A DNA stretch of 64,000 nucleotides from positions 32,001-96,000 of IMG/VR virus record IMGVR_UViG_3300021399_003927; one strand, written 5' to 3'. The translations under genes and the position numbers were made by a program. The notes under the pieces are model-generated. The model was not told where the DNA came from. It made no database searches and saw nothing but the letters and a program-made list of their open reading frames with translations. The DNA comes from a virus. Lineage: Duplodnaviria > Caudoviricetes. Positions 36,793 through 55,178 of this stretch are shown here, one piece after another (positions within the stretch are counted from its first letter, which is position 1; every line of letters begins with the position of its first letter).

Positions 36793-36869
36793 TCGAGACG
36801 GCAGGAGTTGAACCTGCGTGTGACCTACTACACTTTCTACTCCTTATCAGGGAGAGGTGATACGTCTCG
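36793..36869 (-). ncRNA. D-armless tRNA-like RNA, anticodon GAT
   Basis: CGAGACG/CGTCTCG; CTCC-CTGATAA-GGAG; D-loop-like hairpin in the variable region. Confidence 0.65.
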
Positions 36870-36872
36870 CTG

Positions 36873-37082
36873 TTATAAAAATACTGTTTTAGCCTTGCTT
36901 AAAAATTCATCCACATTACCATTAAAAGTGAAACTATTACCTCCTACTCTAATATAGGTTTTTTCTTCACCATCACGGTTTTTATAGTCATAAATATAAT
37001 TTATATCAGCTTTTCTAAACAAATTTTTATGACCATCTGGATTAGTTATTTCCAAAAACGAATTTGTATAATCGTAATTCAT
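36873..37082 (-). CDS. hypothetical protein
   Basis: 69-aa ORF. Confidence 0.5.
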   Translation of the reverse strand: MNYDYTNSFLEITNPDGHKNLFRKADINYIYDYKNRDGEEKTYIRVGGNSFTFNGNVDEFLSKAKTVFL

Positions 37083-37101
37083 ATTTCTATCTTAAAAAAA
37101 C

Positions 37102-37165
37102 GGAAGCGATTTTCTAGAATTATCAATTAAAAGTTGAGTCCTATTAGAAATTGCTGTAAGCTTCC
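37102..37165 (-). ncRNA. CAGCA-scaffold RNA with Lys(TTT) anticodon hairpin
   Basis: TCAA-CTTTTAA-TTGA inside GGAAGC/GCTTCC. Confidence 0.75.
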
Positions 37166-37166
37166 T

Positions 37167-37245
37167 TGGTGCTTGCGATAGGATTTGAACCTACTGTACC
37201 CCACTATAAGATGGCGTGTGTCTGCCAATATATCACCCCTCAAGC
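37167..37245 (-). tRNA. atypical tRNA, anticodon ambiguous (TAT or TTA)
   Basis: T arm and encoded CCA; irregular anticodon loop TCTTATAG. Confidence 0.5.
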
Positions 37246-37434
37246 ATGTTCGCACTCTGTACTCTTTCAAGCCATCGAGCACTTGTCTTGCATTATCGTA
37301 GTTAAGACCAATATACGGCATTCTTGACCTAAAGTATGCTTACGGTGGAGTTAAATGTGTGTCCTCTGTTTTAAGTCCGCGCAATTTCCCCATAACTCCC
37401 AAGAGACTTATGCGCTTGACTGATACTCAAGTAG

Positions 37435-37510
37435 TTGGAGGTAACGGATTCGAACCGATGACCTTCTGCTTGTAAGGCAGACGCTGCTGAACCAACTGAG
37501 CTAACCTCCA
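37435..37510 (-). tRNA. tRNA-Val(TAC)
   Basis: Cloverleaf. Confidence 0.9.
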
Positions 37511-37771
37511 ATTTGGGAGCGTTTGTTTTATGTGTGACTCGCCCTTTCAACAAGACCTGAGGTTTCCGAAGATTCCACTATTACAGTTCTCTTGTTCCAC
37601 AATCCCTATCGTCTGTTTACTTGTCCATCAGAAACTTATATCCGAAAACTCCACAAACAGCACCAACAATAAATGTAAGCATAATAATTTTTTATTAGTT
37701 AGACATTTGAATTAACAATGCAAAGATATATAAAATATTTGAAACTTCCAAATTTTATTCCTTAAAAAATG

Positions 37772-38443
37772 TTACCATTTGTCTATATTGTCAGCTACCC
37801 ATTGTTTTACTTCTTTCTTTTCGTATTCCTCTTGGATTGCGTCAGCGTCAGCAGCATCAAACTCATCTTCCAATTCACTTTCATCAAACTGAACATGCAA
37901 TCCATATTTTTTCTTATGAGGCTTTTTGCAAGTTTCTTGTTTGCATATTACTGCATTCTTGCCGTCACCCCAACGGTATTGTAGCCACCCTTCGTATTCT
38001 CCAGTGTCAAATAAATATCCTTTTGGAATTTCATCATCACCTCTGAAAAAATCATCAAGCATTTCTAGCCCAATGCGTACAGTTCCGCGCCATGTTTTCA
38101 TAACATTGCGATGATATTGGTAAATACCATCACCGCCTATTTTTAATATCTTGCTTTTTTCAAAATCAAGAACCAAATATCCCCAAAAACGGCTTTCAAT
38201 TTTAAACTCCCAAATTTCTTCATGCCATTTGGAGCGCAAATTAGGAACTTTATATGGCCTTGGCGTGTCCGCATAGACCTCTTCTATGAGGTTAACCTCT
38301 TCCTTCCATTCAGCTTCGGTATCAAATTCTGTCTCAGAATGAGAATATTCCTTCAAATTATACAAATCTTGCATATCCCTAGCTGTAGGGGATTTGCCCC
38401 ACATGGAAAAAATTACCATATATCTTTTTGTATGCTTTTTCAT
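37772..38443 (-). CDS. hypothetical protein
   Basis: 223-aa ORF. Confidence 0.65.
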   Translation of the reverse strand: MKKHTKRYMVIFSMWGKSPTARDMQDLYNLKEYSHSETEFDTEAEWKEEVNLIEEVYADTPRPYKVPNLRSKWHEEIWEFKIESRFWGYLVLDFEKSKILKIGGDGIYQYHRNVMKTWRGTVRIGLEMLDDFFRGDDEIPKGYLFDTGEYEGWLQYRWGDGKNAVICKQETCKKPHKKKYGLHVQFDESELEDEFDAADADAIQEEYEKKEVKQWVADNIDKW

Positions 38444-39057
38444 GATTCTTTTCTTTTTCTAAAAGATGTCTTCAAATCAAAACCGTGAGCTAATATTTTA
38501 CCTTCGTTGGTTTGTGTTTTCACACCCTCTGGAGAACCAAATAAATCACAGAAACAGTCATGTTTAAACACATTTATTTCTTTCTCATCATATTTATTTT
38601 CATGTAAAAAAGCAACGATGTTATTCATCACCTTTTCCAAATCACTAATGAGGTGGTCTTCAATTCCGTTTCCAATCAAATCCCAAGGTCTAATTTCATG
38701 ACCTATTGAAGTGTTATTCCTATTTGTTAAATAACTTATTTCATAGTAGCCACCTTGAAAGTTTATCCTATACACCTTTCTAATGCCTTCCTCTTGGTAT
38801 TTTTTCTTATTGTTTAAAGAACTTTCGCTTTTGTAGTAGTAAAAGCCCAAAGGAGAGAGACATTTCAAATTCCTTCCACCTTTACCTACACGGCTAATAA
38901 CTCTTTCATCACGGACAATTTCTTCTCCCTTTTGAAAGGTAATGGCATTGCTATATATAAATTGAGCATTAATTGTGGGGTTTTCTACTTTCTGTACAAT
39001 AACCTCACATTTACTGAACAATGTTTTCCTTTTTTCTCTTACCTTATTGTCTTTCAT
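38440..39057 (-). CDS. hypothetical protein
   Basis: C-terminal HGFDLKTSFRK. Confidence 0.65.
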   Translation of the reverse strand: MKDNKVREKRKTLFSKCEVIVQKVENPTINAQFIYSNAITFQKGEEIVRDERVISRVGKGGRNLKCLSPLGFYYYKSESSLNNKKKYQEEGIRKVYRINFQGGYYEISYLTNRNNTSIGHEIRPWDLIGNGIEDHLISDLEKVMNNIVAFLHENKYDEKEINVFKHDCFCDLFGSPEGVKTQTNEGKILAHGFDLKTSFRKRKES

Positions 39058-39266
39058 GACACGAAACTTTCAAACCAATTTTTAATAAGTTTTACAGGCC
39101 AAAAGAACATAAGGAAAACTATAAGCAGAATAGCCATAGGCTCTTCAACCTCGTCAATGTCTTTCTCATATTCGTATTCTGGTTTATATTCATCATTCCA
39201 CCACACTAGTGCTAGAACCAAACCTATTATAAAATAAGCTATTAATATAACTTGACCTACACTCAT
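39054..39266 (-). CDS. membrane protein
   Basis: Start MSVGQ; two hydrophobic helices. Confidence 0.55.
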   Translation of the reverse strand: MSVGQVILIAYFIIGLVLALVWWNDEYKPEYEYEKDIDEVEEPMAILLIVFLMFFWPVKLIKNWFESFVS

Positions 39267-39289
39267 AACAATAAAAACTAAATTAACAG

Positions 39290-39374
39290 CTCGCAGGGTG
39301 CGATTCGAACACACGGTAGCGTAAGCTACGACAGTTTTGGAGACTGCTGGGTTAAACCACTCCCCCACCTGCGA
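39290..39374 (-). tRNA. tRNA(CCA) with Ser-like class II body
   Basis: GCAGT-CTCCAAA-ACTGT, long variable arm, G73. Confidence 0.8.
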
Positions 39375-39380
39375 ATGTTG

Positions 39381-39805: not shown

Positions 39806-40381
39806 TTAACGTATATTAACAAAATCTATTGCCAATATGTCTTTATCCGTTCCTTTTTTAAGTGTCTTTTTGTTATTCAATTTGGCAAACAACCAAGGAA
39901 ACCAATCATCAATTATCTTAGGGTCTTGAACTGACGAATATACAGCCTCCTCAGTTGGCTCATACTCATACTTATAGTCAAATTCCCAATTGTAAAGATT
40001 CCTACCACAATAGAATTTTATATTAGGAAACCTAACTTCCATAGCTTGACAGAAATCCTTGAATCTTTCAACGCTTTCTTTAGTATATTGTTTTTTGTTC
40101 CTTGCCTCATGCAACACCCTAACAATACACCCATTATCATTCATGAACTCCAAATGCTTCATTAAAGTCATGTAGTTAATGTCAAATTGAAAGAATCCAT
40201 GAGCAATTACAATTCTGCCCTTTTTGTCGAATCTTATCCTCAAATCAAAACTTCTAACACCATAATCATAATATTGGTGATATATTGAAGCTTTTTGGCA
40301 TCTAGCCATAAATCTAAATGGTCTTAACCACCATTTCTCTGGTCTTAAATATGACCACGAATTGTGAGATTGTAATATCAT
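39806..40381 (-). CDS. PI-PLC X-domain-like phosphodiesterase
   Basis: SHNS, GVRSFDLRI, AHG. Confidence 0.7.
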   Translation of the reverse strand: MILQSHNSWSYLRPEKWWLRPFRFMARCQKASIYHQYYDYGVRSFDLRIRFDKKGRIVIAHGFFQFDINYMTLMKHLEFMNDNGCIVRVLHEARNKKQYTKESVERFKDFCQAMEVRFPNIKFYCGRNLYNWEFDYKYEYEPTEEAVYSSVQDPKIIDDWFPWLFAKLNNKKTLKKGTDKDILAIDFVNIR

Positions 40382-44262: not shown

Positions 44263-44335
44263 TGGAGCTGAAGAGAATCGAACTCTCCCACGAACCTTGC
44301 AAAAGTCCATCGCCAGCCTTGGAACATGCAACCCC
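44263..44335 (-). tRNA. tRNA-Ala(TGC), atypical D arm
   Basis: G3:U70; loop TTTGCAA. Confidence 0.75.
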
Positions 44336-44474: not shown

Positions 44475-45545
44475 CTATTTCTTGTCAAATATCACCCCAT
44501 CTGGTAAATCATTGTCTACCACTTTCTTCTCCTTGTAGTAGTCCAAATAGGCATTTCCATCGTCATTGATGATGTATTCGATGCCTCTTGAATATTCATA
44601 GGTAGATGCAACACCTTGCAGCATAAAGAAGAAAAATCCATCCTTATCTACTAGTCGCAACCAATGGGAATCATTTGTATTTTCCTCTTGTATGATTTTG
44701 TACTTGTCCGTTGCCTTTACCTTTTCTATGTATTTGTTGAAAGTTGGGGCAAACTTACCAGTTGCACAATCACCTCTGAAACGAACAGATTCAAACCCTA
44801 TTTTCTTAGCCCATTCGACAAAATTCTCAACGAATGTAGGAAAGTTCTCAATTTCCTTATACACAACACTCACTGCTGATGTTGTTATGTTTCTGTCAAG
44901 AAGCTGTACTATCAAGCTAGTAAGCTCTTCGTCTGTCGGAATTCTCCAAGTGTTAAATATCTCTCTTCGTGCATCTAAATTATAATGATGAATTGAAATA
45001 TTTACATAGTTAACCACGCCAATTAATGAATCTAAAACTTCATTCAGCTTATATCCATTTGTGGTAAGGGTCACTCTGTTAATTTTATCCAACCATTTAG
45101 AGTTTTTTAGCCTCCTTAACACTTTCCTTAACAAGTCTGGATTGAACGTTGGTTCATTTCCAGTTATGTCAAGACTAATTGGCTGTTTGCCGTATACTCT
45201 ATCAACCACATCGCCAAGAGAATCAATAAATCTGCTCAAGAATAAGTCATAGTCATGCTCCATGTTCTTATATCCGTTCATAAAACAAAACTCACACTTT
45301 GCTTGGCAGAAAGATGGGATTATCAACTTAATTGAAACCACATTCTCATAGTCAACTCTTACGTTGTAATTGTCAAGTACCCATAAATGCCATTTTGCAG
45401 CATTCACAACATTTTCATTCTCATGCTTTAGAAGAGATTCAACATAACCTCTGTCCAAGGTAAAATCCTTTTTCAGCTTATGGTATATGTCTGTCCATTT
45501 CTCCCTTTTGTGTTCTAAAATTGTCTTTTTGACATCTTTCCACAT
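44475..45545 (-). CDS. radical SAM protein
   Basis: CQAKCEFC, TGNEPT, TTNG. Confidence 0.88.
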   Translation of the reverse strand: MWKDVKKTILEHKREKWTDIYHKLKKDFTLDRGYVESLLKHENENVVNAAKWHLWVLDNYNVRVDYENVVSIKLIIPSFCQAKCEFCFMNGYKNMEHDYDLFLSRFIDSLGDVVDRVYGKQPISLDITGNEPTFNPDLLRKVLRRLKNSKWLDKINRVTLTTNGYKLNEVLDSLIGVVNYVNISIHHYNLDARREIFNTWRIPTDEELTSLIVQLLDRNITTSAVSVVYKEIENFPTFVENFVEWAKKIGFESVRFRGDCATGKFAPTFNKYIEKVKATDKYKIIQEENTNDSHWLRLVDKDGFFFFMLQGVASTYEYSRGIEYIINDDGNAYLDYYKEKKVVDNDLPDGVIFDKK

Positions 45546-45575
45546 ACTACTGAGTTATTAATTGATGAAACATTG

Positions 45576-45646
45576 CGGAGGTAGAGGGAATCGAACCCAC
45601 ACCTAATGGTTAACAGCCACTTGCTCGACCTTCGAGCTACACCTCC
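45576..45646 (-). tRNA. tRNA-Asn(GTT)
   Basis: Cloverleaf. Confidence 0.85.
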
Positions 45647-45653
45647 AATTTTG

Positions 45654-45731
45654 TGGATGCAATAGGATTCGAACCTATGTTTTTTTACCATTGTATATGG
45701 TCACTCCCCAGAGGAGTCCTTACACGCATCC
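45654..45731 (-). ncRNA. atypical tRNA-like RNA (TAC)
   Basis: Acceptor and T arm intact; non-canonical D arm; ACCA-TATACAA-TGGT. Confidence 0.55.
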
Positions 45732-45949
45732 ATATTTAGTCATTACAAAAATGTACCCAATAGGTATCATCTTTAATATCCTTTAAAACTTTTTTCCTAT
45801 CCCAATTATGTAGTATACATAATTTCCATAACATTTTTTTAGATAAAGGATTTATACACCCAAAAGGTGTAGTTCCAATAAGAGAATTTAACACCTCAAT
45901 ATGCTTTGTGTTACGTATTTTATGCATAGTTATTATAATTTCAATTTTG

Positions 45950-46112: not shown

Positions 46113-46194
46113 ATTGTTAAACTAGGTCTGCACTCCCCTCGCATGCTACGTGTCGGAGTTACTTGCATTGCTGCATTTGTTGTTACCTAGTTTG

Positions 46195-46267
46195 TGGGGC
46201 TGGGTGGAGTTGAACCACCGACACGAGGATTTTCAGTCCTCTGCTCTACCACCTGAGCTACAGCCCC
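46195..46267 (-). tRNA. tRNA-Phe(GAA)
   Basis: Cloverleaf. Confidence 0.95.
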
Positions 46268-46414
46268 AATATTCATTTGTCAATTTTATCAAGAATCTCT
46301 TGAGCCAAATTTATCATCTTGCCTAATTTTCCCATTTTTTTTTGCAAATATATGATTTTTTTTTCAAATAGCCAAATTTTTTCTCCACTTTAACATACCT
46401 TAACTATAGGCACA

Positions 46415-46623
46415 TAAAAAAGCTGCTGAATACTTTTTTGAGAGTTCTTCAACAGCTTGGGAAATATATAGTGAAGTAAGTGCCTACATTAAACCTTTCA
46501 TACCTCTATATCACCGTCTAGCTGTTCTAGAACTGCGTCTGAATTAAACACAACTGTATCATTCCATTTACTATTCGCAAATGAATCAGATGTCTTAACG
46601 ATATTTTTAATAGTTGTGTTCAT
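46415..46623 (-). promoter_or_regulatory. 41-aa leader-like ORF followed by an intrinsic terminator
   Basis: ORF 46498-46623; hairpin AAGCTGTTGAA...TTCAGCAGCTT followed by a U-tract. Confidence 0.45.
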
Positions 46624-46707
46624 GATATAAAAGTTTAATTGATTTTTCTATAATTATATATTAACTCTCAAAAAGTTCTATTTTTTTGTAATTTTTTTTG
46701 TATTTTT

Positions 46708-47139
46708 TTAATTTAAGTAGTTTTCATACTTTTTGCACTTTTCTTTCACCTCATTAAAATACTGCATGGCAGCTTCATTTGAAGTAAATCTTTTATGTAC
46801 ATTGTTGTTATAATCAGAACAATACACATCGACCTCTGCTTTAAAATATACGGTGTCATTCTTTAGGAAATAATGATGCCATCCATACTTACTTTCAGCA
46901 GCATCTTTCAATTTTGCAAAACGGCACATACGGCCACTTGCTTTGTATAAGTTATGTTTCGCATGAAGTGGAATAAGAGGTATTATCCCCCAAAGTTTCC
47001 AAAAATAAATTTTTCCCTTCGGTACTGCTACCTCCATTTTTTCACCTTCTTGTACTGGAGTAAACTCTATGCTTTTAATACTTCTGTAAAAAGCTCCACC
47101 TTCTAATCTAATAGGTGCGTATGTTTCATTATTGTCCAT
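46708..47139 (-). CDS. hypothetical protein
   Basis: ORF directly after a promoter. Confidence 0.6.
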   Translation of the reverse strand: MDNNETYAPIRLEGGAFYRSIKSIEFTPVQEGEKMEVAVPKGKIYFWKLWGIIPLIPLHAKHNLYKASGRMCRFAKLKDAAESKYGWHHYFLKNDTVYFKAEVDVYCSDYNNNVHKRFTSNEAAMQYFNEVKEKCKKYENYLN

Positions 47140-47262
47140 TGTTAATATGGTTATTTAAAAATTTCACAATGCAAAGATATAAAAAATATCTTTAATTCCC
47201 AAATTTTTTCAGAAGTTTTTAAAAAAAAATTCAAAAAATTCAAGTATTTGAACTATTTTTTG

Positions 47263-47350
47263 TATAGGGGGTGGGAGTCGAACCCACAACTATCTTTCGA
47301 TAGACTGGTTTCGTAGACCAGGACGGTCATCCATTACGTTTTACCCCTAC
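47263..47350 (-). tRNA. tRNA-Arg(ACG) with long variable arm
   Basis: CTGGT-CTACGAA-ACCAG; CTATC-GAAA-GATAG arm. Confidence 0.75.
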
Positions 47351-47356
47351 ATAAAA

Positions 47357-47515
47357 AGGAACGACCAATTTTATGTCTTGGCTCGACATTCGCTCTTACT
47401 TAAGGAGCATAGGTAAGTGCCTCGCAATGATGATTTAACGCTTCTCTTACCCTTGTCTAGTCTGAATTAAAAAATGTTGTTCGTGTAAATTTTAATCAAA
47501 CTGCTGTACGTTCCT
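47357..47515 (-). ncRNA. CAGCA-scaffold RNA with multi-hairpin cargo
   Basis: GGAACGTACAGCAG...CGTTCC. Confidence 0.7.
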
Positions 47516-47558
47516 ACTGACACGCAGCTAGGCGCAACTGGGCTTCCTAGATACGATG

Positions 47559-48093
47559 TACATCCGCTGGGACTCGAACCCAGAACCTACGGCTTCGTAC
47601 TACTCTATGTTACCATAGCCAAACTTAACAATAACGTATATACGAGGCACATGTCCCCATGCATCCAACCGATGATGCGTTAAATTTGTTGTAGTCTGGA
47701 ATACATCTTTACCATATTGAAATTCTTGCGCAAGTTGAGCGTGCTTTATACGTTTACACTACTATACACGGTTGAGTATCTTATTGCCTCTCAATTTCAA
47801 CTTAGGTATCTCCTATATACTCTCTACACATTTATGAGAATCTTTCACTATCCATCTTCTTCCATTTTATTGATGGCTCTTCTCAATTTAGCACGGTATA
47901 ATCCTTACACATTATTGGTTAGTGTGTTTTTCATAAGCGATTGGGCATCTTTGTGTTCCAATGTAACTTCAACTTATTACTCTAACTTAAAAGAACTTCC
48001 ACCGTTTTAGGGAGATTCTACTATGGGATTTCTCGCCATAGCATCCAATTTTACATAGAAGGCCGTTGCTCTAATCCATTGAGCTACGGATGC
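47559..48093 (-). tRNA. tRNA-Arg(TCT) split by a group I intron
   Basis: Exons 48057-48093 and 47559-47595. Confidence 0.9.
47596..48056 (-). mobile_element. group I intron (about 461 nt) after position 36
   Basis: Core shared with the 28202 intron; IGS ATTGGA. Confidence 0.9.
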
Positions 48094-48460
48094 ATTTACA
48101 TTAACTCAATGTTGGGTCATTTTTGGGGTCGTAGTCATCGTGCAAAAAAGGCTCTGTTGGTGGAACTTCTACTGCATTGCGAAATTCATACACCATTATG
48201 CCTATAAATGCTACTAAAAACGCCAATACGATTATTCCAATTATTCTCATTTTTATTTATTTCTTTTTTTAGAATATTCTTCCAACTCTTCTTTAAAGGA
48301 TTTCATTTTTTCCTTTTTACTTGGACGTTTCTTAGGGGAAAAACAAACTAGCATAATAAGCATGTATCCCCATATAAACAAAAATAAAATAAATAGTAAC
48401 CTTCCCATAACATTTTCTATTTACGTTGCAAATATATGAAAAAAAATTGAAATAGCCAAA

Positions 48461-49483
48461 TTATTTTGACCTTTTTAACTTATTTCTATACCAATTTTTC
48501 AAAATATCATAAATTCCTTTATTTCTTTTAACAAATATATCACCTTGTGGAATCTCCTTTGATGAATATTTTTTGAAACTACCTCTAGCAGTACCATTTT
48601 CCTCATTCCATCTTCCAATGACCCTTCTCATTTTCTTAATCAAATAAGAAATGTTGGCATCGCATAATTTAAAATAGTTTTTTGGTTCATCTATTCTCCT
48701 AATAGATGCATCAATATATTCTTTTGTGTTATCTTTTGTGTAATAATCATCTTTTGAAACATACACTCGTTTCAACAATTTGTAGTCTTTAATTGTACCA
48801 GATAGCATTTTATAGGTCTTAGTGTCTCTGATGTCATTTTCATATTGTGACTCCATATACATTTCTTGAACCCACGCATCTATTTCGTCTCTATCTAATC
48901 TATAATATATCCAAGGTATCGTATAATCTACAATTTGTTTAATAGGGGTATTTGCGGCTGAATTAAAACCAAATTTGTTTTCTATTTCTCTTTGCGCCTT
49001 TGAATACTGGGGTGTGATATTAGTACCACCTCTTCTATATGACTGATAAGCATGTTTTATTTCGTGATTAATTGTAGATACAATATAGTTTTTTTCCCTA
49101 TGAGGTATAGCATCTGTCATTGCCCACACAAACGAAAATGTTATCACTCTATTACTAGGAGAAAAGTTATTTTTCAAATAGCCATTACTAGAAATAAAAT
49201 CCATAACGTCATCAAACGTTTCATTCTGTGGGTTATAATAATACAAATTGACAGTAATTCCATTTAAAAAAGACAATGTTTGAATATTATCAATATCTAA
49301 ATTAAATGTTTTACCATATATTTTTTTATCACCAATCTGGAACGTTTGGCTTCTATATTCTCTATGATGTTCATATATCAAATTAAAAATGGCTATAGAT
49401 ATTTGCATAATATCATTTGACACGCCACCATATTCTAATATTACTTCTTTTACTATGGATTCTATGAGATTATTTTTAATCAT
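48461..49483 (-). CDS. hypothetical HExxH protein
   Basis: HEIKH followed by a downstream E. Confidence 0.6.
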   Translation of the reverse strand: MIKNNLIESIVKEVILEYGGVSNDIMQISIAIFNLIYEHHREYRSQTFQIGDKKIYGKTFNLDIDNIQTLSFLNGITVNLYYYNPQNETFDDVMDFISSNGYLKNNFSPSNRVITFSFVWAMTDAIPHREKNYIVSTINHEIKHAYQSYRRGGTNITPQYSKAQREIENKFGFNSAANTPIKQIVDYTIPWIYYRLDRDEIDAWVQEMYMESQYENDIRDTKTYKMLSGTIKDYKLLKRVYVSKDDYYTKDNTKEYIDASIRRIDEPKNYFKLCDANISYLIKKMRRVIGRWNEENGTARGSFKKYSSKEIPQGDIFVKRNKGIYDILKNWYRNKLKRSK

Positions 49484-49865
49484 AACAAAAATGACATCTA
49501 TTATTTTAATTTATAATAAATATCATTTTAAACTAAAAATAACTGAATGTGTTGTTACACCAAAGACAACGTATATACTTTACGCCTCACGATTCACGTT
49601 TACAATTCGACCAAGAATCCAGCAGCGGCTTTAAAGGTTCTCCAACTTGACTTCACGAGCCTCATTCGGTCTTATATTTCAGATTCTCAGACTTCGACCT
49701 CTCGTCTCTCGCCTATTAGGGATTTGCAACTCCCAAGTTATTTGGATGCACCTAGGGTTTTTATACGAGGTGTAAACCCATAAAACATACTACCTCACCA
49801 CTTACTGAGTACTGTCACTCCTTAGAAGATGGACACTACCAATCCTACTTTTTCAGTTATCTATG

Positions 49866-49953
49866 TAGGGTAGAAGGGATTCGAACCCCCACAAACCTCT
49901 CGGTTTCCACATCCTAAGTGTGGTGCGTCTCAACCTAATTGCGCCACTACCCC
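49866..49953 (-). tRNA. tRNA-Leu(TAG)
   Basis: Class II cloverleaf. Confidence 0.9.
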
Positions 49954-49966
49954 ATAATAAAAACTC

Positions 49967-50093
49967 GGAAACAATTGTTTTTAGACTGCCGTGTTTAGCC
50001 ACTCCACCAACTTTCATCTAAGAAAGTGTGGGATTCGAACCCACGAAATCAATTACGATTAGCTGTTTTGAACAAATATTGCTGTTTGTTTCC
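49967..50093 (-). ncRNA. CAGCA-scaffold RNA with permuted class II (Ser/Leu-like) tRNA
   Basis: Variable arm, T arm and ACTTTC come before GAAAGT, D arm and GCAGTCT; opened in the anticodon loop. Confidence 0.8.
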
Positions 50094-50121
50094 TTTATAA
50101 AAAAAAGCGATTGAATAATTG

Positions 50122-50195
50122 TAGGGGCGATGGATAATGCTCCCACTATCTCATGCTTATAAGGCATGTGCTTTTACTGTCTAAGCTACACCCCA
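50122..50195 (-). tRNA. tRNA-Ile(TAT)
   Basis: CATGC-CTTATAA-GCATG; aberrant T-loop. Confidence 0.7.
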
Positions 50196-50389
50196 ATCTT
50201 CCAATATGGATAATTCCTCTTTTCAGATTCTGGCGTATCTGTTAATTCATACCTTGCGCCACAGTAAGGACAATGGGCATAAGTCACCATTGCATCGTCT
50301 TCTTCACTCAAATCTTCTCCGTTGATTTCACTGAGCATAAAGTTTCCCTCTAGAATTAGGTCATGCTCACAACGCATACATTTTTCCAT
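50186..50389 (-). CDS. small Zn-ribbon protein
   Basis: CMRC and CPYC. Confidence 0.6.
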   Translation of the reverse strand: MEKCMRCEHDLILEGNFMLSEINGEDLSEEDDAMVTYAHCPYCGARYELTDTPESEKRNYPYWKIGV

Positions 50390-50407
50390 ATTGAATTAGT
50401 TTTATTG

Positions 50408-50479
50408 AGCAGTGTAGGAGATTCGAACTCCCTCCTTGACCTTGGCAAGGTTATATGCTACCATTAACACCAACACTGC
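50408..50479 (-). tRNA. tRNA-Gly(GCC)
   Basis: Cloverleaf, U73. Confidence 0.9.
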
Positions 50480-50648
50480 AAAGTCAGTTTTTATAACCGT
50501 AAAACTGAAAAACTTCCTCCACCTACGATGAGGCAATAGTTTGAATTCCTTCAGGGACTACTGACGTTACGTTGAGCCTCAAATCTCTTTTGATGGTCTT
50601 TTTTAACGTGCAGATAATCTAGCAAGTAGTATGTACACGATATTTTAA

Positions 50649-50794
50649 GGAAACGTTTGTTGTTTATTTTAAGTGCTCTAGCCGACTGAGCTACCACGCT
50701 ATGTTATTATAATTTAGCAGCGTGGGCAGGACTCGAACCTGCGACCCCTAGCTTGTAATGCTTTTTTAAACGATATACATTGCTGTACGTTTCC
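50649..50794 (-). ncRNA. CAGCA-scaffold RNA with permuted tRNA (TAC)
   Basis: AGC-ATTACAA-GCT, T arm and CCACGCT come before AGCGTGG and the D arm. Confidence 0.85.
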
Positions 50795-50800
50795 ACGTTG

Positions 50801-51358
50801 AGCGAGTGAACGGAATCGAACCGTCATATTCAGCTTGCTTACCACACTATGTTACCATAGCCAAACAAATGCTTCCCTTTCAAGGCATATTTAACTCTTC
50901 TAAGCTCATTTGTCTGTTGTAGTCTGGAATACATCTTTACCATATTGAAATTCTTGCAAGATATATTTGAACATTCTTCCTCTTCTTTTTCCCAATAGGC
51001 TCTATATATTACGCAAAGAGTTGTACGCTATTATCCTCTTGGCAAGTTCAAATATAAATTTCAACTTAGGTATCTCCTATATACTCTCTACACATTTATG
51101 AGAATAAACTATTGGTTAAATAGACTTACTTACAAGGTTTTTCCTTTTCTTGTACCTATTATTCTCAATTTAGCACGGTATTATCCTTCCCCATTATTGT
51201 TTAGGAGGCACTGATAGTCTTATACAGTACGATTTATTATTATACTACTCGTAAGGACTTCCACCGTTTTAGGGAGATTCTACTATGGGATTTCTCGCCA
51301 TAGCACTTCATTTTCAGTCCTTTGGAGGGCTGACATTCTACCATTGAACTACACTCGC
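50801..51358 (-). tRNA. tRNA-Gly(TCC) split by a group I intron
   Basis: Exons 51325-51358 and 50801-50837; loop CCTC|CAA. Confidence 0.85.
50838..51324 (-). mobile_element. group I intron (about 487 nt) at position 35/36
   Basis: Shared core; IGS ATGAAG. Confidence 0.85.
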
Positions 51359-51565
51359 TTGGTGAACTAACTTAGTGATGTTCCACAAATGTATTTTATG
51401 AACACATATATTTAATGAAAAGACAAGAACATCTAGTTTGGTATTAGTTCGTGAGCTGTTTACTTTTCGCAGCAACCGTTTATCTAACTACCTACTTTGC
51501 AGAAATGAGGAGAATGTAGACATTTGATAGTCGATAAACTTGCGGTTTTAACGATTCACCGCCAA
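51359..51565 (-). ncRNA. structured RNA displaying the target of the tRNA-shaped RNAs
   Basis: GTTTATC-GACTATC/GGTAGTT-A-GATAAAC stem whose loop contains TGTCTACATTCTCCTC. Confidence 0.5.
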
Positions 51566-51597
51566 CGCCTTATTTTTTAGTATTCTCCTAAAACTCT

Positions 51598-52620
51598 TTA
51601 CTGAACAGTAGTTGGCTTAACGATTGCCAAACGGTTAAGCTTAACACCCTCACCTACGGCCTTATTAACTCTCACACCACGAGCCTTAAGGTACTCTGCA
51701 ACAGCATCTGCTCTGCGCTGTGAAAGCTCCTTGTTATAAGCTTCACTACCCTCTGGTGATGCATATCCGAACACGTCAACGATACCATCTTGTCCGATTG
51801 TGTTAAGAACTGCCTTTGCATCACTTGTAAGCTCTGCGCTATTGAAAGCGAACTCAACCGTCCACTCATTAGTCTTTTCAACAACACGGAAGATAGGTTT
51901 CTCAACAACAACTTGCGTTACAACCGTATCAACTGGATGTAGTCTCTGACACTCATCAAGAGCACCATTGAGTCGGCTAATCTCAGCATTCATTGCGCCA
52001 ATGTCATAAGTCTTGAAGTGATGAGTACCGTTGCTAGTCTTGAAGTGGTATACATAACTTACGTTAAGTGCCAACTGTGAACCACGCTTATCAAACTGAA
52101 TATCACCAAACTTGTGGAGATTCCAATAGATTGCTGGAGTCAAGACCAACGAATGAGCCTTTTTCTTACCAATGTTCCAAGCAAAGTCAAGACCTGTCTT
52201 AGAACTTAGATAGTTGTTACTTGTGTTCCATGTATGAAGCCAACCGATACCTGCAATTGCACTAACTTCAAACTTCCTAGGAGTACCTTGGTATCCACCA
52301 AATACATTTGACAAATTGAGTGCGCCATTAAGACCTACGTTTGTTGCCTTTACTGATGTCTTGATGTCAGTGAAATGGTTGTCATTCAAAAATGCCAAAC
52401 CTTCTACTTGGAAACCGAATGCTGGAGTGAAATCCTTAGTGAACTTAAGACCAACATTTGTGTTGAGAGGGAAAACTGAGTTGAAGTCAAGCGGAGTTGA
52501 AACGCCACCAGTGATACCGATGCCAATGTTATCAAGTGCTGAACTGTTCTCAGTTGCAATCTGTGCCTTTGCACCAACTACGGCACTAAAAAGTGCCAAC
52601 ATTAAAATTAATTTTCTCAT
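51598..52620 (-). CDS. ompA: OmpA family outer membrane protein
   Basis: Signal peptide, beta-barrel, GYASPEG, NKELSQRRA. Confidence 0.88.
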   Translation of the reverse strand: MRKLILMLALFSAVVGAKAQIATENSSALDNIGIGITGGVSTPLDFNSVFPLNTNVGLKFTKDFTPAFGFQVEGLAFLNDNHFTDIKTSVKATNVGLNGALNLSNVFGGYQGTPRKFEVSAIAGIGWLHTWNTSNNYLSSKTGLDFAWNIGKKKAHSLVLTPAIYWNLHKFGDIQFDKRGSQLALNVSYVYHFKTSNGTHHFKTYDIGAMNAEISRLNGALDECQRLHPVDTVVTQVVVEKPIFRVVEKTNEWTVEFAFNSAELTSDAKAVLNTIGQDGIVDVFGYASPEGSEAYNKELSQRRADAVAEYLKARGVRVNKAVGEGVKLNRLAIVKPTTVQ

Positions 52621-52699
52621 AACTTTTTTTAATTGTGCTATTTTTTAATAATGTTATTTCAAATGCAAAAATATACAAAAAAATTGTAAATCCCAAATT

Positions 52700-53005
52700 T
52701 TAGAATGGTAATTTATCAATTTTCTTTAATTTCCATTTGTATGTATACGTTCTAACCCCATTGTTCTTAACCATTTTATATGTTGGAGTGCTCACATAAA
52801 AACTTTTTCTTGTGAACGCTTTTATTATCAACGTAAATGCATCAGAACAATAAGGATAACTAGATGTTTCTATTGTAACCTCTATTTCATCACCGACATT
52901 TTTGACGTCATATTCATCAATGCTGTCTTGAATTTCCTTAATGAAGAAATAGCAATACCTTGGAAAATCAATATGCTCTTTTGTTATTTTTTGATATTCG
53001 CCCAT
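52700..53005 (-). CDS. hypothetical protein
   Basis: 101-aa ORF. Confidence 0.55.
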   Translation of the reverse strand: MGEYQKITKEHIDFPRYCYFFIKEIQDSIDEYDVKNVGDEIEVTIETSSYPYCSDAFTLIIKAFTRKSFYVSTPTYKMVKNNGVRTYTYKWKLKKIDKLPF

Positions 53006-53025
53006 AACATTTAATTAAAAAAAAC

Positions 53026-53139
53026 GGATACTTTTGTTTTAACCAATACCTCCGAAGAGGCTTTCTTCCTATTTTTGACGGAAAAATTTGGATTCGAACC
53101 AAAAAGCTGTAACAAAAGTCACACTTGCTGTTAGTATCC
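53026..53139 (-). ncRNA. CAGCA-scaffold RNA with permuted T-arm/acceptor cargo
   Basis: TTTGG-TTCGAAT-CCAAA-TTTTTCC comes before GGAAGAA. Confidence 0.75.
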
Positions 53140-53143
53140 TAGG

Positions 53144-53276
53144 TTGATGGTATGGGATTCGAACCCATGTTGCCGATAGGCTGCGCTCCTACAAAATCAT
53201 TCGCCCATTCATAGGATTCACTACTCTCTAGTTTCTTTTAGTGCCGCCTTGCGCAATCCTCTTACTGAACCATCAA
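53144..53276 (-). ncRNA. tRNA shell with an insert of about 95 nt
   Basis: TGATGGT/ACCATCA plus ATGGG-TTCGAAT-CCCAT. Confidence 0.6.
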
Positions 53277-53280
53277 TTTG

Positions 53281-53353
53281 TCTAGGTGACCAGACTCGAA
53301 CTGACAACCTCAGCATCCCAAATGCCGTGCGCTACCTATTGCGCCACACCTAG
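53281..53353 (-). tRNA. tRNA-Pro(TGG)
   Basis: Cloverleaf. Confidence 0.9.
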
Positions 53354-53454
53354 ATAAAACGATGCAAGTGATAAACCTCGCAGTTTTTTTATTTAACGTG
53401 GAGAACCTTGGATACTTCCTGCGTTACCAAACTCCATTCCTACCTTATGGTTTC

Positions 53455-53589
53455 GGAAACATTTTTTTGCTTTCTCTACCAACTGAGCTACCTCCCCAAG
53501 TTATCTGATTTTGTGGGGAGGGTGAGACTCGAACTCACGACCCTTTGATTATCAGTCAAATGCTTGCGTAATACTTGCTGTATGTTTCC
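53455..53589 (-). ncRNA. CAGCA-scaffold RNA with permuted tRNA-Ile(GAT)
   Basis: TTTGA-CTGATAA-TCAAA, T arm and CCTCCCC come before GGGGAGG and the D arm. Confidence 0.88.
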
Positions 53590-53649
53590 TTATGTTTTGC
53601 AAAGATATACAAAATATTTTTTATTTCCAAATTTTCAAAGAACTTTTTT

Positions 53650-53832
53650 TCAATCCACCTCTATTTTGTTTCCGCAACTTGGACAAGTGATAAACTTACC
53701 AATATAGGTTTCTCCAGCATATGACTGAACACCATAGGAACACTCTTTTTCTTCAATGTCAGATGCACTATATTCCAAATAAGAACAGCATTTTGAACAT
53801 TTAACTATATTTCCTTCTAATTTTTTTACCAT
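53650..53832 (-). CDS. small Zn-ribbon protein
   Basis: CSKC and CPSC. Confidence 0.55.
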   Translation of the reverse strand: MVKKLEGNIVKCSKCCSYLEYSASDIEEKECSYGVQSYAGETYIGKFITCPSCGNKIEVD

Positions 53833-54021
53833 TTTTTTTTTGACGTTAAAATCCCATTTCTTCTTTGGTAGGTTCTTCTGAACCGCCTATTCTTATACCT
53901 TCTGCCAATAGTTTCAGCATTTCCCTATCTTTTTCGTTTGGAAATCTTTTTTCTGCCATTCGATAAAATTTTCTTTTTTTCATATTTGGGTGTACGACAG
54001 GATTCAAACCTGCGTATACAT

Positions 54022-54432
54022 TTATTCTATTAATTTAATTTTACTTCTATGAAATCTCTTACTATTTTTATTTAAACTGCCAAAATTTTCTGTTAAACAA
54101 TGGCAGTTGGGGCATAATAATTGAAGGTTTTCTAATTTATTATTTGTACAGTCCCCATCAATGTGATGAACCTCTAATGGAATGTTGTGTGTTATTGGGT
54201 GTTCTTCTCCCCAACCGCATTTTTCGCATTTATTATTATGCAACTCCATTAAATATTTTTTTATAAATGTTGGTATTTGATGTCCACCTTTCACAAAATT
54301 TTCTCCACTTAACCATCTTTGAATTAACTCATTATATCTATATTCAGCTGAACATTTATGACAACAAAATTTATTGTTTCTTTGTTCGTATGTTAATTCT
54401 TTACCACAGTTAGTACATATATGCTTTTTTTT
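54022..54432 (-). pseudogene. 5'-truncated HNH endonuclease
   Basis: Frame stays open up to tRNA-His (KHICTNCGK...) with no ATG; HHIDGD, NLQLLCPNCH. Confidence 0.7.
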
Positions 54433-54435
54433 TAG

Positions 54436-54508
54436 GGTGAAAGGAGAATTTCGAAATCTCGCCCTCTTGGTTCACAGCCAAGCGCTCTTCCTCTGAGCTA
54501 CAATCACC
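54436..54508 (-). tRNA. tRNA-His(GTG)
   Basis: G-1, C73. Confidence 0.85.
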
Positions 54509-54699
54509 ATATTTGAACAGTAGTATATACCATTACGAGCATATACCATTACTAGTTACTATCAATTACCTCAACATATCGTTATCATTTTTACAGTACT
54601 ACTATTATATGACTATTGTTTGCCTACTTCTTATCAAGTCTGTTCTTCTATGTAGACTTCCGAGCATTGTCCAAAGCGGTGACTACAATCCCCCAATGC

Positions 54700-54785
54700 G
54701 TAGGCTGTATGGGACTCGAACCCATCGTTCTGTATGGTCTTCGTGCGCCTAACCGACTAGCGTTTCCCTACCACATTGACAGCCC
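54700..54785 (-). ncRNA. tRNA shell with rearranged core
   Basis: GGGCTGT/ACAGCCT, T arm, nested D-like hairpin. Confidence 0.55.
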
Positions 54786-54797
54786 ATGTTAAAAAAC

Positions 54798-54910
54798 GGA
54801 ATCCTTTAAACTAAGGTAGGTAGGGAGTCGAACCCTAATCTCTTGGTAAAATCCAAGGCTCTACCATTGAGCTACCCATCTGGAGTTTTTACCTTATGCT
54901 GCAAGATTCC
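54798..54910 (-). ncRNA. CAGCA-scaffold RNA with degenerate full tRNA
   Basis: GGAATCTTGCAGCA...GATTCC; 6-nt anticodon loop. Confidence 0.75.
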
Positions 54911-54914
54911 TTTG

Positions 54915-54997
54915 TCAGGTGGGTAGGATTCAAACCTACGAACTTCTGCTATATCAACACGGCTATATTTGCAGAACAATGATGCCGTTTCCACCTG
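54915..54997 (-). ncRNA. D-armless pseudoknotted tRNA-like RNA
   Basis: CAGGTGG/CCACCTG, T arm, ACGGC/GCCGT. Confidence 0.55.
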
Positions 54998-55002
54998 TTT
55001 TG

Positions 55003-55075
55003 TCTAGATGAAAGGACTCGAACCTTCGACCCCAGCATCCCAAATGCCGCGTTCTACCTACTGAACTACACCTAG
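55003..55075 (-). tRNA. tRNA-Pro(TGG)
   Basis: Cloverleaf. Confidence 0.9.
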
Positions 55076-55084
55076 ATAGTTTTG

Positions 55085-55178
55085 TCGAGGGGGTGTGACT
55101 TGAACACACTTACTGCGAGTCCACTACGACAATTTGTTAATGCAGGGCGGTTTTACAGACCGCTGCCGTTACCCCTCG
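55085..55178 (-). ncRNA. D-armless tRNA-like RNA, anticodon GTA
   Basis: CGAGGGG/CCCCTCG; GCGGT-CTGTAAA-ACCGC; large variable arm. Confidence 0.7.

What the first reader, a model, noticed from the sequence alone, without database searches (positions are those of the whole stretch)
36793..55178. D-armless tRNA-like RNAs with a displaced D-loop and a pseudoknot
Seen: 36793 (GAU) and 55085 (GUA) both start with CGAG and replace the D arm with an 8-nt connector that can pair with the enlarged variable-arm loop (ACCT/AGGT; ACGGCA/TGTCGT). That loop carries a D-loop-like AGTAGG or AGTGG. 54915 shows a related ACGGC/GCCGT pairing. Inference: an alternative topology that rebuilds the L-shape.
Basis: partly seen in the sequence, partly recalled or inferred. 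Interest (0 to 1): 0.7.

Follow-up and report, generated by a model that had tools for sequence, protein, structure and literature searches.

The report
Phage tRNAs with a transposed D-arm
Two of these phage RNAs are real-looking isoleucine and tyrosine tRNAs whose D-arm has been cut up and moved behind the anticodon arm, a rewired tRNA architecture that is widespread in phages, missed by gene finders and apparently undescribed.

Summary
All three elements exist on the minus strand of a tRNA-rich jumbo-phage fragment. None has a D hairpin between positions 9 and 26.

The Ile(GAU) element (36793-36869) and the Tyr(GUA) element (55085-55178) belong to large, conserved, apparently phage-restricted families. 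In these, the strand after U8-A9 pairs with a strand 3' of the anticodon arm, and that strand is followed by a D-loop-like A-R-N-N-G-G segment.

Covariation support:
- Ile family: the helix is paired in 222 of 222 cells, with all four Watson-Crick pairs at its middle position.
- Arg family (same scaffold): 156 of 156 cells paired, with no helix position fixed by the search.
- Tyr family: both helices of a true pseudoknot covary across 42 sequences.

U8, A14, G18-G19, the T-loop and a 15-48-type pair are kept. The base after GG is A in 52 of 52 Arg members and U in 74 of 74 Ile members. Rewired and canonical genes with the same anticodon almost never share a tRNA array.

The Ile pairing (ACCT/AGGT) and its variable-arm hairpin are not conserved. 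The third element (54915-54997) has no anticodon arm and is a tRNA-like RNA of unknown role.

No expression or charging data could be obtained.

The parts
36793..36869 (-). Rewired tRNA-Ile(GAU), 77 nt. In RNA order: acceptor 5' strand 36869-36863; U8 A9 36862-36861; D-stem 3'-strand equivalent UCAC 36860-36857; C 36856; anticodon arm 36855-36839 (anticodon 36848-36846); AGAAA 36838-36834; D-stem 5'-strand equivalent GUGU 36833-36830; D-loop-like AGUAGGUC 36829-36822; ACAC 36821-36818 (the last C is the 48-equivalent); T arm 36817-36801; acceptor 3' strand 36800-36794; A73 36793.
   Evidence: Sequence. Rfam tRNA match at 32.3 bits with the D arm deleted. Family alignment A1 of 74 sequences and pair counts. 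RNAalifold independently predicts the 11-13 x 37-39 helix.
36857..36859 (-). CAC, the 5' strand of the conserved 3-bp helix (alignment A1 columns 11-13).
   Evidence: Paired with columns 37-39 in 74 of 74 sequences. Middle pair: CG 40, UA 21, GC 7, AU 6. This pair has the highest mutual information in the alignment, 1.61 bits.
36831..36833 (-). GUG, the 3' strand of the conserved 3-bp helix (alignment A1 columns 37-39), followed by U and the D-loop-like segment.
   Evidence: In the Arg family all three pairs vary and stay complementary (156 of 156 cells).
55085..55178 (-). Rewired, pseudoknotted tRNA-Tyr(GUA), 94 nt. In RNA order: acceptor 5' strand 55178-55172; U8 A9 55171-55170; S1 5' strand ACGGCA 55169-55164; anticodon arm 55163-55147 (anticodon 55156-55154); C 55146; variable-stem 5' strand CUGC 55145-55142; linker 55141-55132; S1 3' strand UGUCGU 55131-55126; D-loop-like AGUGGACUC 55125-55117; variable-stem 3' strand GCAG 55116-55113; UAA 55112-55110; T arm 55109-55093; acceptor 3' strand 55092-55086; A73 55085.
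   Evidence: Sequence. Weak Rfam tRNA-Sec match with the D arm deleted. Family alignment A4 of 42 sequences and pair counts for both pseudoknot helices. The MFE fold finds S1.
54915..54997 (-). tRNA-like RNA without an anticodon arm, 83 nt. In RNA order: acceptor 5' strand 54997-54991; AA; ACGGC 54988-54984; UCUGC 54975-54971; GCCGU 54963-54959; GCAGA 54949-54945; T arm 54939-54923 (loop UUUGAAU); acceptor 3' strand 54922-54916; A 54915.
   Evidence: Sequence. There are 3 distinct homologues, all in close relatives of this phage, with compensatory changes in the acceptor and T stems. From the CUGC strand onward it aligns to the Tyr type. No Rfam match up to E = 10.

Best explanation
The Ile(GAU) and Tyr(GUA) elements are functional elongator tRNAs of a phage-restricted structural class. 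In this class, canonical segment 10-21 (the D-stem 5' strand plus the D-loop) has been moved from its place after A9 into the variable region, behind the anticodon arm.

What the rewiring does (shown by covariation):
- The strand left after U8-A9 plays the part of D-stem strand 22-25 and runs straight into the anticodon stem.
- Its partner arrives after the anticodon arm and is followed by A14, R15, G18 and G19 equivalents.
- In the Ile and Arg families this gives a three-way junction with a long D-plus-anticodon arm.
- In the Tyr family the moved segment sits inside the loop of the long variable arm, which makes a true pseudoknot.

What follows (inferred, not shown):
- Each of the three new backbone joins (9 to 22, 45 to 10, 21 to 48) links residues that are already tertiary neighbours in a canonical tRNA, so the L-shape and its elbow can be rebuilt.
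- The RNAs would then be processed, charged by IleRS or TyrRS and used on the ribosome like ordinary tRNAs. Charging would mostly be by the host enzymes. This phage clade also carries its own TyrRS.
- The selective reason for the rewiring is not shown. My leading guess is escape from host enzymes that recognise or cut the canonical D-arm side of tRNAs.

The third element (54915) is a relative of the Tyr type that lacks the anticodon arm, and it is probably not a decoder.
For: 1. Helix in the Ile family.
- Columns 11-13 pair with columns 37-39 in 222 of 222 cells of 74 distinct sequences. The middle pair is CG 40, UA 21, GC 7, AU 6.
- This pair has the top mutual information in the alignment.
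- RNAalifold predicts the helix without being told.

2. Same scaffold with Arg anticodons.
- A scan that left all six helix positions free gave 52 distinct members: ACG 37, TCT 9, TCG 4, CCT 2.
- 156 of 156 helix cells are paired. Pair types are AU30/CG15/GC6/UA1, CG41/UA5/AU3/GC3 and CG43/GC3/UA3/AU2/UG1.
- The only two chance matches to that pattern are not complementary.

3. Tyr family, 42 distinct sequences.
- The five inner S1 pairs are formed in 42 of 42. Pair 12-51 is GC31/AU10/CG1. Pair 13-50 shows six pair types.
- The variable stem is 99.4% paired, with UA33/CG9 and GC31/CG9/AU1 at two of its pairs.

4. The tertiary core is retained.
- U8, the A14 equivalent, GG and the T-loop U-C are invariant in all 74 Ile sequences.
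- The 15-48-type pair is AU 39, GC 23, other 12. This holds within both the GAU and UAU subgroups.

5. Isotype signatures.
- The base after GG is A in 52 of 52 Arg members and U in 74 of 74 Ile members. A20 is the classical ArgRS identity element; this is recalled knowledge.
- The discriminator is A in 74 of 74 Ile and 41 of 42 Tyr members.

6. Complementary distribution in 106 distinct arrays with at least 15 ARAGORN tRNAs.
- A canonical gene with the same anticodon is present in 0 of 32 arrays with rewired GAU, against 62 of 74 without.
- For UAU the figures are 0 of 28 against 45 of 78. For ACG they are 0 of 23 against 19 of 83.
- Canonical Tyr is present in 3 of 30 arrays that hold a rewired Tyr.

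7. Position in arrays. In the cultured crAss-like phage Kehishuvirus 'tikkala' the gene fills the gap between tRNA-Trp and tRNA-Met in a dense array.

8. No dedicated synthetase in most carriers.
- IleRS and ArgRS families were found in 0 of 5 records searched.
- The TyrRS family was found in 6 of 41 records that carry a rewired Tyr, and in 2 of the 13 that are at least 90% complete.
Against: - There is no direct evidence of transcription, processing, charging or use in translation.
- The Ile/Arg helix is only 3 Watson-Crick pairs plus a U-U.
- For the window's own Ile sequence, the minimum-energy fold prefers the local GUGU/ACAC hairpin.
- The 15-48-type position is not a standard pair in 12 of 74 Ile members, 8 of them G-G.
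- Replacement of the canonical gene is not universal. This window also has a canonical tRNA-Ile(GAU) at 31756-31832, and Streptomyces phage Mildred21 has annotated canonical Ile(gat) and Ile(tat) as well as the rewired gene.
- The arrays counted are partial loci from related phages, so they are not independent.
- Most rows of A1 came from a pattern that fixed four of the six helix positions. The Arg set does not have this problem.
- The three-dimensional argument rests on recalled tRNA tertiary contacts. No model was built.
- 54915 does not fit a decoding role.
Confidence: 0.8

Rival explanations
1. They are tRNA-like RNAs that are not used for decoding. Possible roles are decoys or competitive substrates for host tRNA-binding enzymes or nucleases, primers, or regulatory RNAs. 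On this view the anticodon-like loop is kept for recognition by such partners.
For:
- The window phage and Mildred21 already carry canonical Ile(GAU) genes, so the rewired copy is redundant there.
- 54915, a relative of the Tyr type, has no anticodon arm at all, yet keeps covarying acceptor and T stems.
Against: - Anticodons are confined to coherent isotype sets: NAU in the Ile family, only NCG and NCU in 52 of 52 members of the other family, and GUA in the Tyr family.
- Isotype-specific features track the anticodon: A or U after GG, and A73.
- Rewired genes stand in for the canonical gene of the same anticodon in arrays: 0 of 32, 0 of 28 and 0 of 23. They are the only Tyr gene in 27 of 30 arrays.
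Confidence: 0.1
2. They are D-armless tRNAs of the mitochondrial kind. On this view the D arm is simply lost, the connector is flexible, and no rebuilt core or elbow exists. The apparent D-loop is a leftover.
For: - There is no hairpin between positions 9 and 26.
- Rfam aligns the elements with the D arm deleted.
- An engineered D-armless tRNA-His works in E. coli translation (PMC11551756, passages read).
Against: - The connector is paired in every family member, with compensatory changes.
- GG, the A14 equivalent, U8 and T-loop U55-C56 are invariant, and the 15-48-type positions covary.
- Total length stays at 76-78 nt, as in a full-size tRNA.
Confidence: 0.05
3. They are decaying tRNA pseudogenes or assembly artefacts, and the pairings are chance.
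For: - ARAGORN does not call them.
- The Tyr element scores below every Rfam cut-off.
Against:
- It is also in independently sequenced cultured phages.
- All stems show covariation far above the shuffled and slid controls: 0 of 500 shuffles reach the observed covariation score.
Confidence: 0.01
4. One reading: a variable-arm hairpin (GUGU/ACAC) whose loop pairs with the connector (ACCU/AGGU) to form a pseudoknot.
For: - Both pairings are possible in the window's own sequence.
- The hairpin is part of its minimum-energy fold.
Against: - Across 74 family members the hairpin's second pair forms in 6.
- The outer pseudoknot pairs form in 13 and 14. The two inner C-G pairs never vary, so they say nothing either way.
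- The varying connector base covaries perfectly with a different partner.
Confidence: 0.03

Closest known systems
Canonical bacterial and phage tRNA-Ile, tRNA-Arg and class II tRNA-Tyr
   Same: - 7-bp acceptor stem.
- 5-bp T stem with a T-loop of the usual consensus.
- 5-bp anticodon stem with a 7-nt loop (U33, purine 37).
- U8, A14, G18-G19 and a 15-48-type pair.
- Normal overall length, at least for the Ile and Arg types (76-78 nt); the Tyr members are 90-95 nt and I did not measure canonical lengths.
- Location inside phage tRNA arrays.
- The Tyr type keeps a base-paired variable stem.
   Different: - The order of segments along the chain is 8-9, then 22-45, then 10-21, then 48, instead of 8-9, 10-21, 22-45, 48.
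- There is no D hairpin.
- The D-stem equivalent encloses the whole anticodon arm.
- In the Tyr type the moved segment lies in the variable-arm loop and creates a pseudoknot.
- ARAGORN misses them, and Rfam's tRNA model scores them near or below threshold.
Metazoan mitochondrial D-armless tRNAs (for example mt tRNA-Ser(AGY)) and the engineered 'mini HisT'
   Same: A short stretch stands between the acceptor and anticodon stems instead of a D hairpin. The anticodon-side helix can be read as extended.
   Different: - Those tRNAs lose the D-loop and the D/T elbow, and fold into a Y or boomerang shape (PMC11551756, passages read; PMC7609411, passages read).
- The phage tRNAs keep a D-loop equivalent, GG, and the T-loop partners.
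- They are full length, and they act in a bacterial rather than an organellar setting.
- PMC11551756 states that natural armless tRNAs exist exclusively in mitochondria and that all known bacterial tRNAs are canonical.
Circularly permuted tRNA genes of the red alga Cyanidioschyzon merolae
   Same: Segments of a tRNA are encoded in a non-canonical order, and a duplication-plus-deletion origin is plausible.
   Different: - There the whole gene is permuted, with the 3' half before the 5' half, and processing restores a canonical mature tRNA (PMC3978253; only the search listing and the start of the abstract were seen).
- Here the 5' and 3' ends are in the normal places. Only the internal block 10-45 is permuted, so the mature RNA itself must carry the new topology.
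Allo-tRNAs and tRNA-Sec (8/4 and 9/3 acceptor/T configurations)
   Same: They are natural non-canonical cloverleaf variants found in bacteria and their phages by metagenome mining. They have long variable arms.
   Different: Those differ in helix lengths but keep the order of the arms (PMC5389517, only the start of the abstract seen). The elements here keep the 7/5 helix lengths and change the order.

Membership tests
tRNA (Rfam RF00005; canonical cloverleaf) | Score at or above the curated gathering threshold of the tRNA covariance model | tested here: inconclusive
   The Ile element scores 32.3 bits against a cut-off of 29. The Tyr element has no match at threshold, and its best hit is tRNA-Sec at 24.5 bits against 47. 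54915 has no match up to E = 10.
tRNA (Rfam RF00005; canonical cloverleaf) | 7-bp acceptor stem, and a 5-bp T stem with a 7-nt T-loop carrying U54-U55-C56 and A58 | tested here: met
   Both stems covary in the Ile, Arg and Tyr families. The T-loop U-C is invariant. 54915 has U in place of C56.
tRNA (Rfam RF00005; canonical cloverleaf) | Anticodon arm: 5-bp stem and 7-nt loop with U33 and purine 37 | tested here: met
   This is met for Ile and Tyr, and the stems covary. In the Ile and Arg types the first stem position is a conserved U-U. It is not met for 54915.
tRNA (Rfam RF00005; canonical cloverleaf) | D arm: a local hairpin between positions 9 and 26 | tested here: not met
   Only 4-6 nt lie between A9 and the anticodon stem. 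The D-stem equivalent is formed with a strand 3' of the anticodon arm.
tRNA (functional definition) | Aminoacylation by a cognate synthetase and delivery to the ribosome | not testable with these tools
   Only indirect evidence is available: the isotype-specific base after GG, A73, and the complementary distribution with canonical genes.
Mitochondrial-type D-armless tRNA | D arm replaced by an unpaired connector, with loss of the D-loop/T-loop elbow contacts | tested here: not met
   The connector is paired in 74 of 74, 52 of 52 and 42 of 42 members. GG and T-loop U55-C56 are invariant in the Ile and Arg families; in the Tyr family the first G and U55-C56 are invariant and the second G is kept in at least 90%.
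Class II (long variable arm) tRNA, for the Tyr element | Base-paired variable stem between the anticodon and T arms, closed by a short loop | tested here: inconclusive
   The stem is present and covaries (UA33/CG9 and GC31/CG9/AU1). Its loop, however, is about 25 nt and holds the S1 strand and the D-loop-like segment.
Permuted tRNA gene (red-algal type) | 3' half encoded upstream of the 5' half, with termini joined in a processed intermediate | tested here: not met
   The acceptor 5' and 3' strands are in the normal order, at the two ends of each element.
tmRNA tRNA-like domain or Y-RNA-like (YrlA) tRNA-like module, for 54915 | Match to the Rfam family models | tested here: not met
   No match covers 54915-54997 up to E = 10. 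A YrlA hit at E = 0.87 lies elsewhere, at 55051-55109.

The most novel reading that the evidence does not exclude
A natural, phage-restricted class of tRNAs works in ordinary bacterial translation with a permuted core, and with a pseudoknot in tRNA-Tyr. The new topology is selected because it hides these tRNAs from host enzymes that recognise or cleave the canonical D-arm side of tRNA-Ile, tRNA-Arg and tRNA-Tyr, that is, from anti-phage tRNA nucleases. In this phage clade, a phage TyrRS encoded about 11.6 kb beyond the window's end would give the rewired tRNA-Tyr a private charging route.
Probability: 0.3. Interest if true: 0.95.

Novelty: new variant of a known kind. Interest (0 to 1): 0.88.

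Why it matters
If these RNAs are charged and used, the cloverleaf's order of arms is not a requirement of bacterial translation. RNase P, CCA addition, IleRS, ArgRS, TyrRS, EF-Tu and the ribosome would all accept a tRNA whose D segment has been moved behind the anticodon arm. That contradicts the statement in print that all known bacterial tRNAs are canonical (PMC11551756).

It also means phage tRNA sets are systematically under-annotated. Ile, Arg and Tyr look 'missing' from many arrays. In GenBank phage records the genes I checked are unannotated (Mildred21, LilMartin, 'tikkala') or mislabelled: a tRNA-Phe(gaa) label in Mildred21 and a tRNA-Leu label in EGole.

Cultured hosts exist (Streptomyces, Bacteroides cellulosilyticus), so the question can be tested directly. 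The scaffold could also serve as a naturally evolved orthogonal tRNA frame.

Tried and rejected
1. Expression. The look-up of sequencing runs listed 20 runs holding parts of window 45301-55300, 6 of them on record as RNA. No reads were laid, so nothing can be said about expression or habitat.

3. ARAGORN in metazoan-mitochondrial mode gives a 65-nt call at the Ile locus that does not use the real acceptor or T arm. I discarded it.

5. A home-made scan for the rewired layout ran over all 291 sequences then held, 2.8 Mb in total. It found convincing members only with Ile, Arg and Tyr anticodons. The other hits looked like canonical tRNAs or chance, and I did not follow them.

6. 54915. A pattern scan found 8 stretches. 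Only 3 distinct true relatives emerged, all in close kin of this phage. That is too few to test its internal pairings. A small hairpin around CUGCA is not kept in one of the three.

7. Dedicated synthetases. IleRS and ArgRS families were absent from the 5 records searched.

8. Literature. Seven full-text searches found no description of such tRNAs. The library lacks most subscription journals, and supplements were not consulted.

9. No three-dimensional modelling of RNA was possible with the tools.

10. Two rows of alignment A5 were mis-trimmed because I gave approximate coordinates. I used that alignment only qualitatively.

Full report
**Setting**

The window is bases 32001-96000 of a 129,491-base IMG/VR virus record, estimated 44% complete. 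ARAGORN finds 31 tRNA genes and a tmRNA in the window, all on the minus strand. Rfam's tRNA model adds a few more. The three elements of the finding lie on that same strand, inside this tRNA-rich region. The Ile element sits 27 nt upstream of the tmRNA. The Tyr element and 54915 flank a tRNA-Pro.

**Observation**

Read on the minus strand, 36793-36869 and 55085-55178 each have these features:
- a 7-bp acceptor stem and a standard T arm;
- an anticodon hairpin, with loops CUGAUAA and CUGUAAA;
- an 8-nt stretch, beginning UA, where the D arm should be;
- a downstream segment that looks like a D-loop (AGUAGG, AGUGG).

Rfam aligns the first element to the tRNA model at 32.3 bits (cut-off 29). The 15 D-arm positions are replaced by 4 nt, and there is an 18-nt insertion in the variable region. 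The second element reaches only 24.5 bits, against tRNA-Sec. ARAGORN finds neither, even at a relaxed threshold. So the elements are there as described.

**Homologues**

Relatives of the phage were found through neighbouring proteins. They carry homologues of all three elements.

Pattern scans of IMG/VR then showed that the Ile and Tyr types are large families:
- 81 stretches of the Tyr type.

A scan that excluded Ile anticodons and left the helix positions free gave 79 more stretches. Of those that passed a check on the acceptor and T stems, all 52 distinct sequences carry Arg anticodons: ACG 37, TCT 9, TCG 4, CCT 2.

The Ile type also occurs in cultured phages:
- dozens of Streptomyces phages of the genus Samistivirus;
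- the crAss-like Kehishuvirus 'tikkala' of Bacteroides cellulosilyticus, where it lies between tRNA-Trp and tRNA-Met in a dense array.

The gene is unannotated in the records I opened. One record labels it tRNA-Leu. In Mildred21 a rewired Arg(TCG) is annotated as tRNA-Phe(gaa), and a rewired Arg(ACG) is unannotated.

A scan of one genome for each of 185,579 prokaryote species found only 15 stretches. All are in contigs titled as MAGs, and 11 of the 15 are loci with 5 to 23 tRNA genes in 8 kb or less.

**Secondary structure of the Ile and Arg types**

In the alignment of 74 distinct Ile-type sequences, the three bases after U8-A9-U pair with three bases 3' of the anticodon arm. All 222 cells are paired. 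The middle pair is CG 40, UA 21, GC 7, AU 6. This pair has the highest mutual information of any column pair, 1.61 bits. RNAalifold predicts the helix on its own.

Most rows of that alignment came from a pattern that fixed the two outer pairs, so the Arg set is the cleaner test. There, none of the six positions was fixed. All 156 cells are paired, and each pair shows four or five pair types. The two chance matches to that pattern are not complementary.

The alternatives fail:
- The local hairpin that the window's own sequence can form (GUGU/ACAC), which is also its minimum-energy fold, has its second pair formed in only 6 of 74 members.

**Secondary structure of the Tyr type**

Counts come from 42 distinct sequences. 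Of these, 38 came from a pattern that fixed neither strand of either helix.
- The connector ACGGC pairs with GYCGU in 42 of 42 at each of five positions. Pair 12-51 is GC31/AU10/CG1, and pair 13-50 shows six pair types.
- A sixth, outer pair forms in 28 of 42.
- The variable stem CUGC/GCAG is 99.4% paired, with UA33/CG9 and GC31/CG9/AU1 at two of its pairs.

**What the topology amounts to**

In both types the strand that follows A9 leads directly into the anticodon stem. It therefore occupies the place of canonical strand 22-25. Its partner follows the anticodon arm and is itself followed by the equivalents of A14, R15, G18 and G19. It therefore corresponds to canonical 10-13 plus the D-loop.

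The chain order is thus 8-9, 22-45, 10-21, 48, which is a circular permutation of the block 10-45. In the Tyr type the moved block sits in the variable-arm loop.

From recalled knowledge of tRNA tertiary structure, each new join connects residues that are already neighbours:
- 9 with 23-12;
- 45 with 10-25;
- 21 with the 8-14 layer, next to 15-48.

This is inference, and no model was built.

The sequence data agree with a preserved core:
- U8, the A14 equivalent, GG and T-loop U55-C56 are invariant in the Ile family.
- The 15-48-type positions are AU 39, GC 23, other 12, and the association holds inside both the GAU and UAU subgroups.
- The conserved G-A-A-A between the anticodon stem and the short helix may play the part of the variable-loop triples. 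This is speculation.

**Are they working tRNAs?**

Evidence for:
- Anticodons form coherent isotype sets.
- The discriminator is A in 74 of 74 Ile and 41 of 42 Tyr members.
- The base after GG is A in 52 of 52 Arg members and U in 74 of 74 Ile members. A20 is the classical ArgRS identity element (recalled).
- Among 106 distinct arrays with at least 15 ARAGORN tRNAs, a canonical gene with the same anticodon accompanies a rewired one in 0 of 32 (GAU), 0 of 28 (UAU) and 0 of 23 (ACG) arrays. In arrays without the rewired gene the figures are 62 of 74, 45 of 78 and 19 of 83.
- Canonical Tyr is present in only 3 of 30 arrays that hold a rewired Tyr.

Evidence against, or limits:
- These arrays are partial loci from related phages, so they are not independent.
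- The window phage has a canonical Ile(GAU) at 31756-31832 as well, and so does Mildred21.
- There is no expression or charging evidence.

**Who charges them**

No IleRS or ArgRS family gene was found in the five records searched.

A full-length bacterial-type TyrRS is encoded in this phage outside the window, at G000:C1:107573-108469. It scores 373 bits on TIGR00234 against a cut-off of 113.8. ARAGORN finds no canonical tRNA-Tyr in the 129 kb held.

The TyrRS family is present in only 6 of 41 records that carry a rewired Tyr, and in 2 of the 13 that are at least 90% complete. In most phages, therefore, the host enzymes would have to do the charging.

**The third element**

54915-54997 has covarying acceptor and T stems, and from the CUGC strand onward it aligns to the Tyr type.

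It differs from the Tyr type in three ways:
- only 7 nt stand where the anticodon arm should be;
- there is no GG;
- the T-loop has U in place of C56.

Only three distinct sequences exist, all in close relatives. I read it as a non-decoding tRNA-like RNA derived from the Tyr type. Its function is unknown.

**Comparison with what is known, and novelty**

By acceptor, T and anticodon arms these are tRNAs. They fail the defining D-hairpin feature of the cloverleaf.

They differ from each of the closest known cases:
- They are not mitochondrial-type armless tRNAs, because the connector is paired and the elbow nucleotides are kept.
- They are not gene-level permuted tRNAs of the red-algal kind, because the termini are in the normal order.
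- They are not allo-tRNAs, because the helix lengths are normal.

Seven full-text searches found no description of such tRNAs. A 2020 review of non-canonical tRNAs does not mention phages, viruses or permutation. A 2024 paper states that all known bacterial tRNAs are canonical and that natural armless tRNAs are exclusively mitochondrial. The library is incomplete, so earlier description elsewhere cannot be excluded.

**Verdict**

It is a widespread, phage-restricted, rewired tRNA architecture for Ile, Arg and Tyr, proven at the level of secondary structure by covariation. Function in translation is strongly suggested but not shown.

Noticed in passing
G000:C1:107573-108469, minus strand (about 11.6 kb beyond the window's end): The phage encodes a full-length bacterial-type tyrosyl-tRNA synthetase of 424 aa (TIGR00234, 373 bits). 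The only tRNA-Tyr gene seen in the 129 kb held is the rewired one. Four close relatives (G004, G006, G010, G015) carry the same gene; two other records (G034, G038) have weaker hits to the same family.
   Followed up: partly
window 31924-32009, minus strand: ARAGORN and Rfam call an 86-nt tRNA with anticodon CUA, which ARAGORN labels 'Pyl'. This is an amber-suppressor-type tRNA and may mean the phage reads TAG as a sense codon.
   Followed up: no
window 34389-34512, minus strand: Rfam matches the tRNA model end to end (38.8 bits) over 124 nt. ARAGORN does not call it. It may be a tRNA gene with a roughly 50-nt insertion or intron.
   Followed up: no
window 23314-23375, 27221-27291, 33993-34073, 44263-44335, 45654-45731, 50718-50848, 53144-53275, 54701-54785 (all minus strand): These are further candidates with a complementary 7-bp acceptor pair and a T arm that ARAGORN does not call (my own heuristic). 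Several have odd bodies, for example 45654-45731, which has no D hairpin but has a downstream hairpin. The phage seems to hold a wider collection of non-canonical tRNA-like genes.
   Followed up: no
window 54813-54881, minus strand: ARAGORN reports a 69-nt 'tRNA-???' with a two-base anticodon (tt). Rfam's tRNA model scores it at 45.9 bits.
   Followed up: no
L284 (Streptomyces phage Mildred21, MF155946.1) 36368-36443, 39858-39934 and 31380-31454: A rewired Arg(TCG) is annotated as tRNA-Phe(gaa). A rewired Arg(ACG) is unannotated, at record positions 94857-94933. A 'tRNA-OTHER' looks like a more divergent rewired Arg(TCT). The same phage encodes a tRNA nucleotidyltransferase right next to its rewired Ile gene, and also a Ro-like protein, an RNA ligase and a polynucleotide kinase.
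   Followed up: partly
window 36405-36765, minus strand: A phage tmRNA (tag peptide GENVDSPAYEYAVAA) lies 27 nt downstream of the rewired tRNA-Ile, probably in the same transcript.
   Followed up: no
L080:634-709 (IMG/VR contig): This is a rewired Arg(ACG) with the same CAC/GUG helix but without the conserved CUCU and GAAAG core motifs. More divergent subtypes of the architecture therefore exist beyond what my patterns could catch.
   Followed up: no
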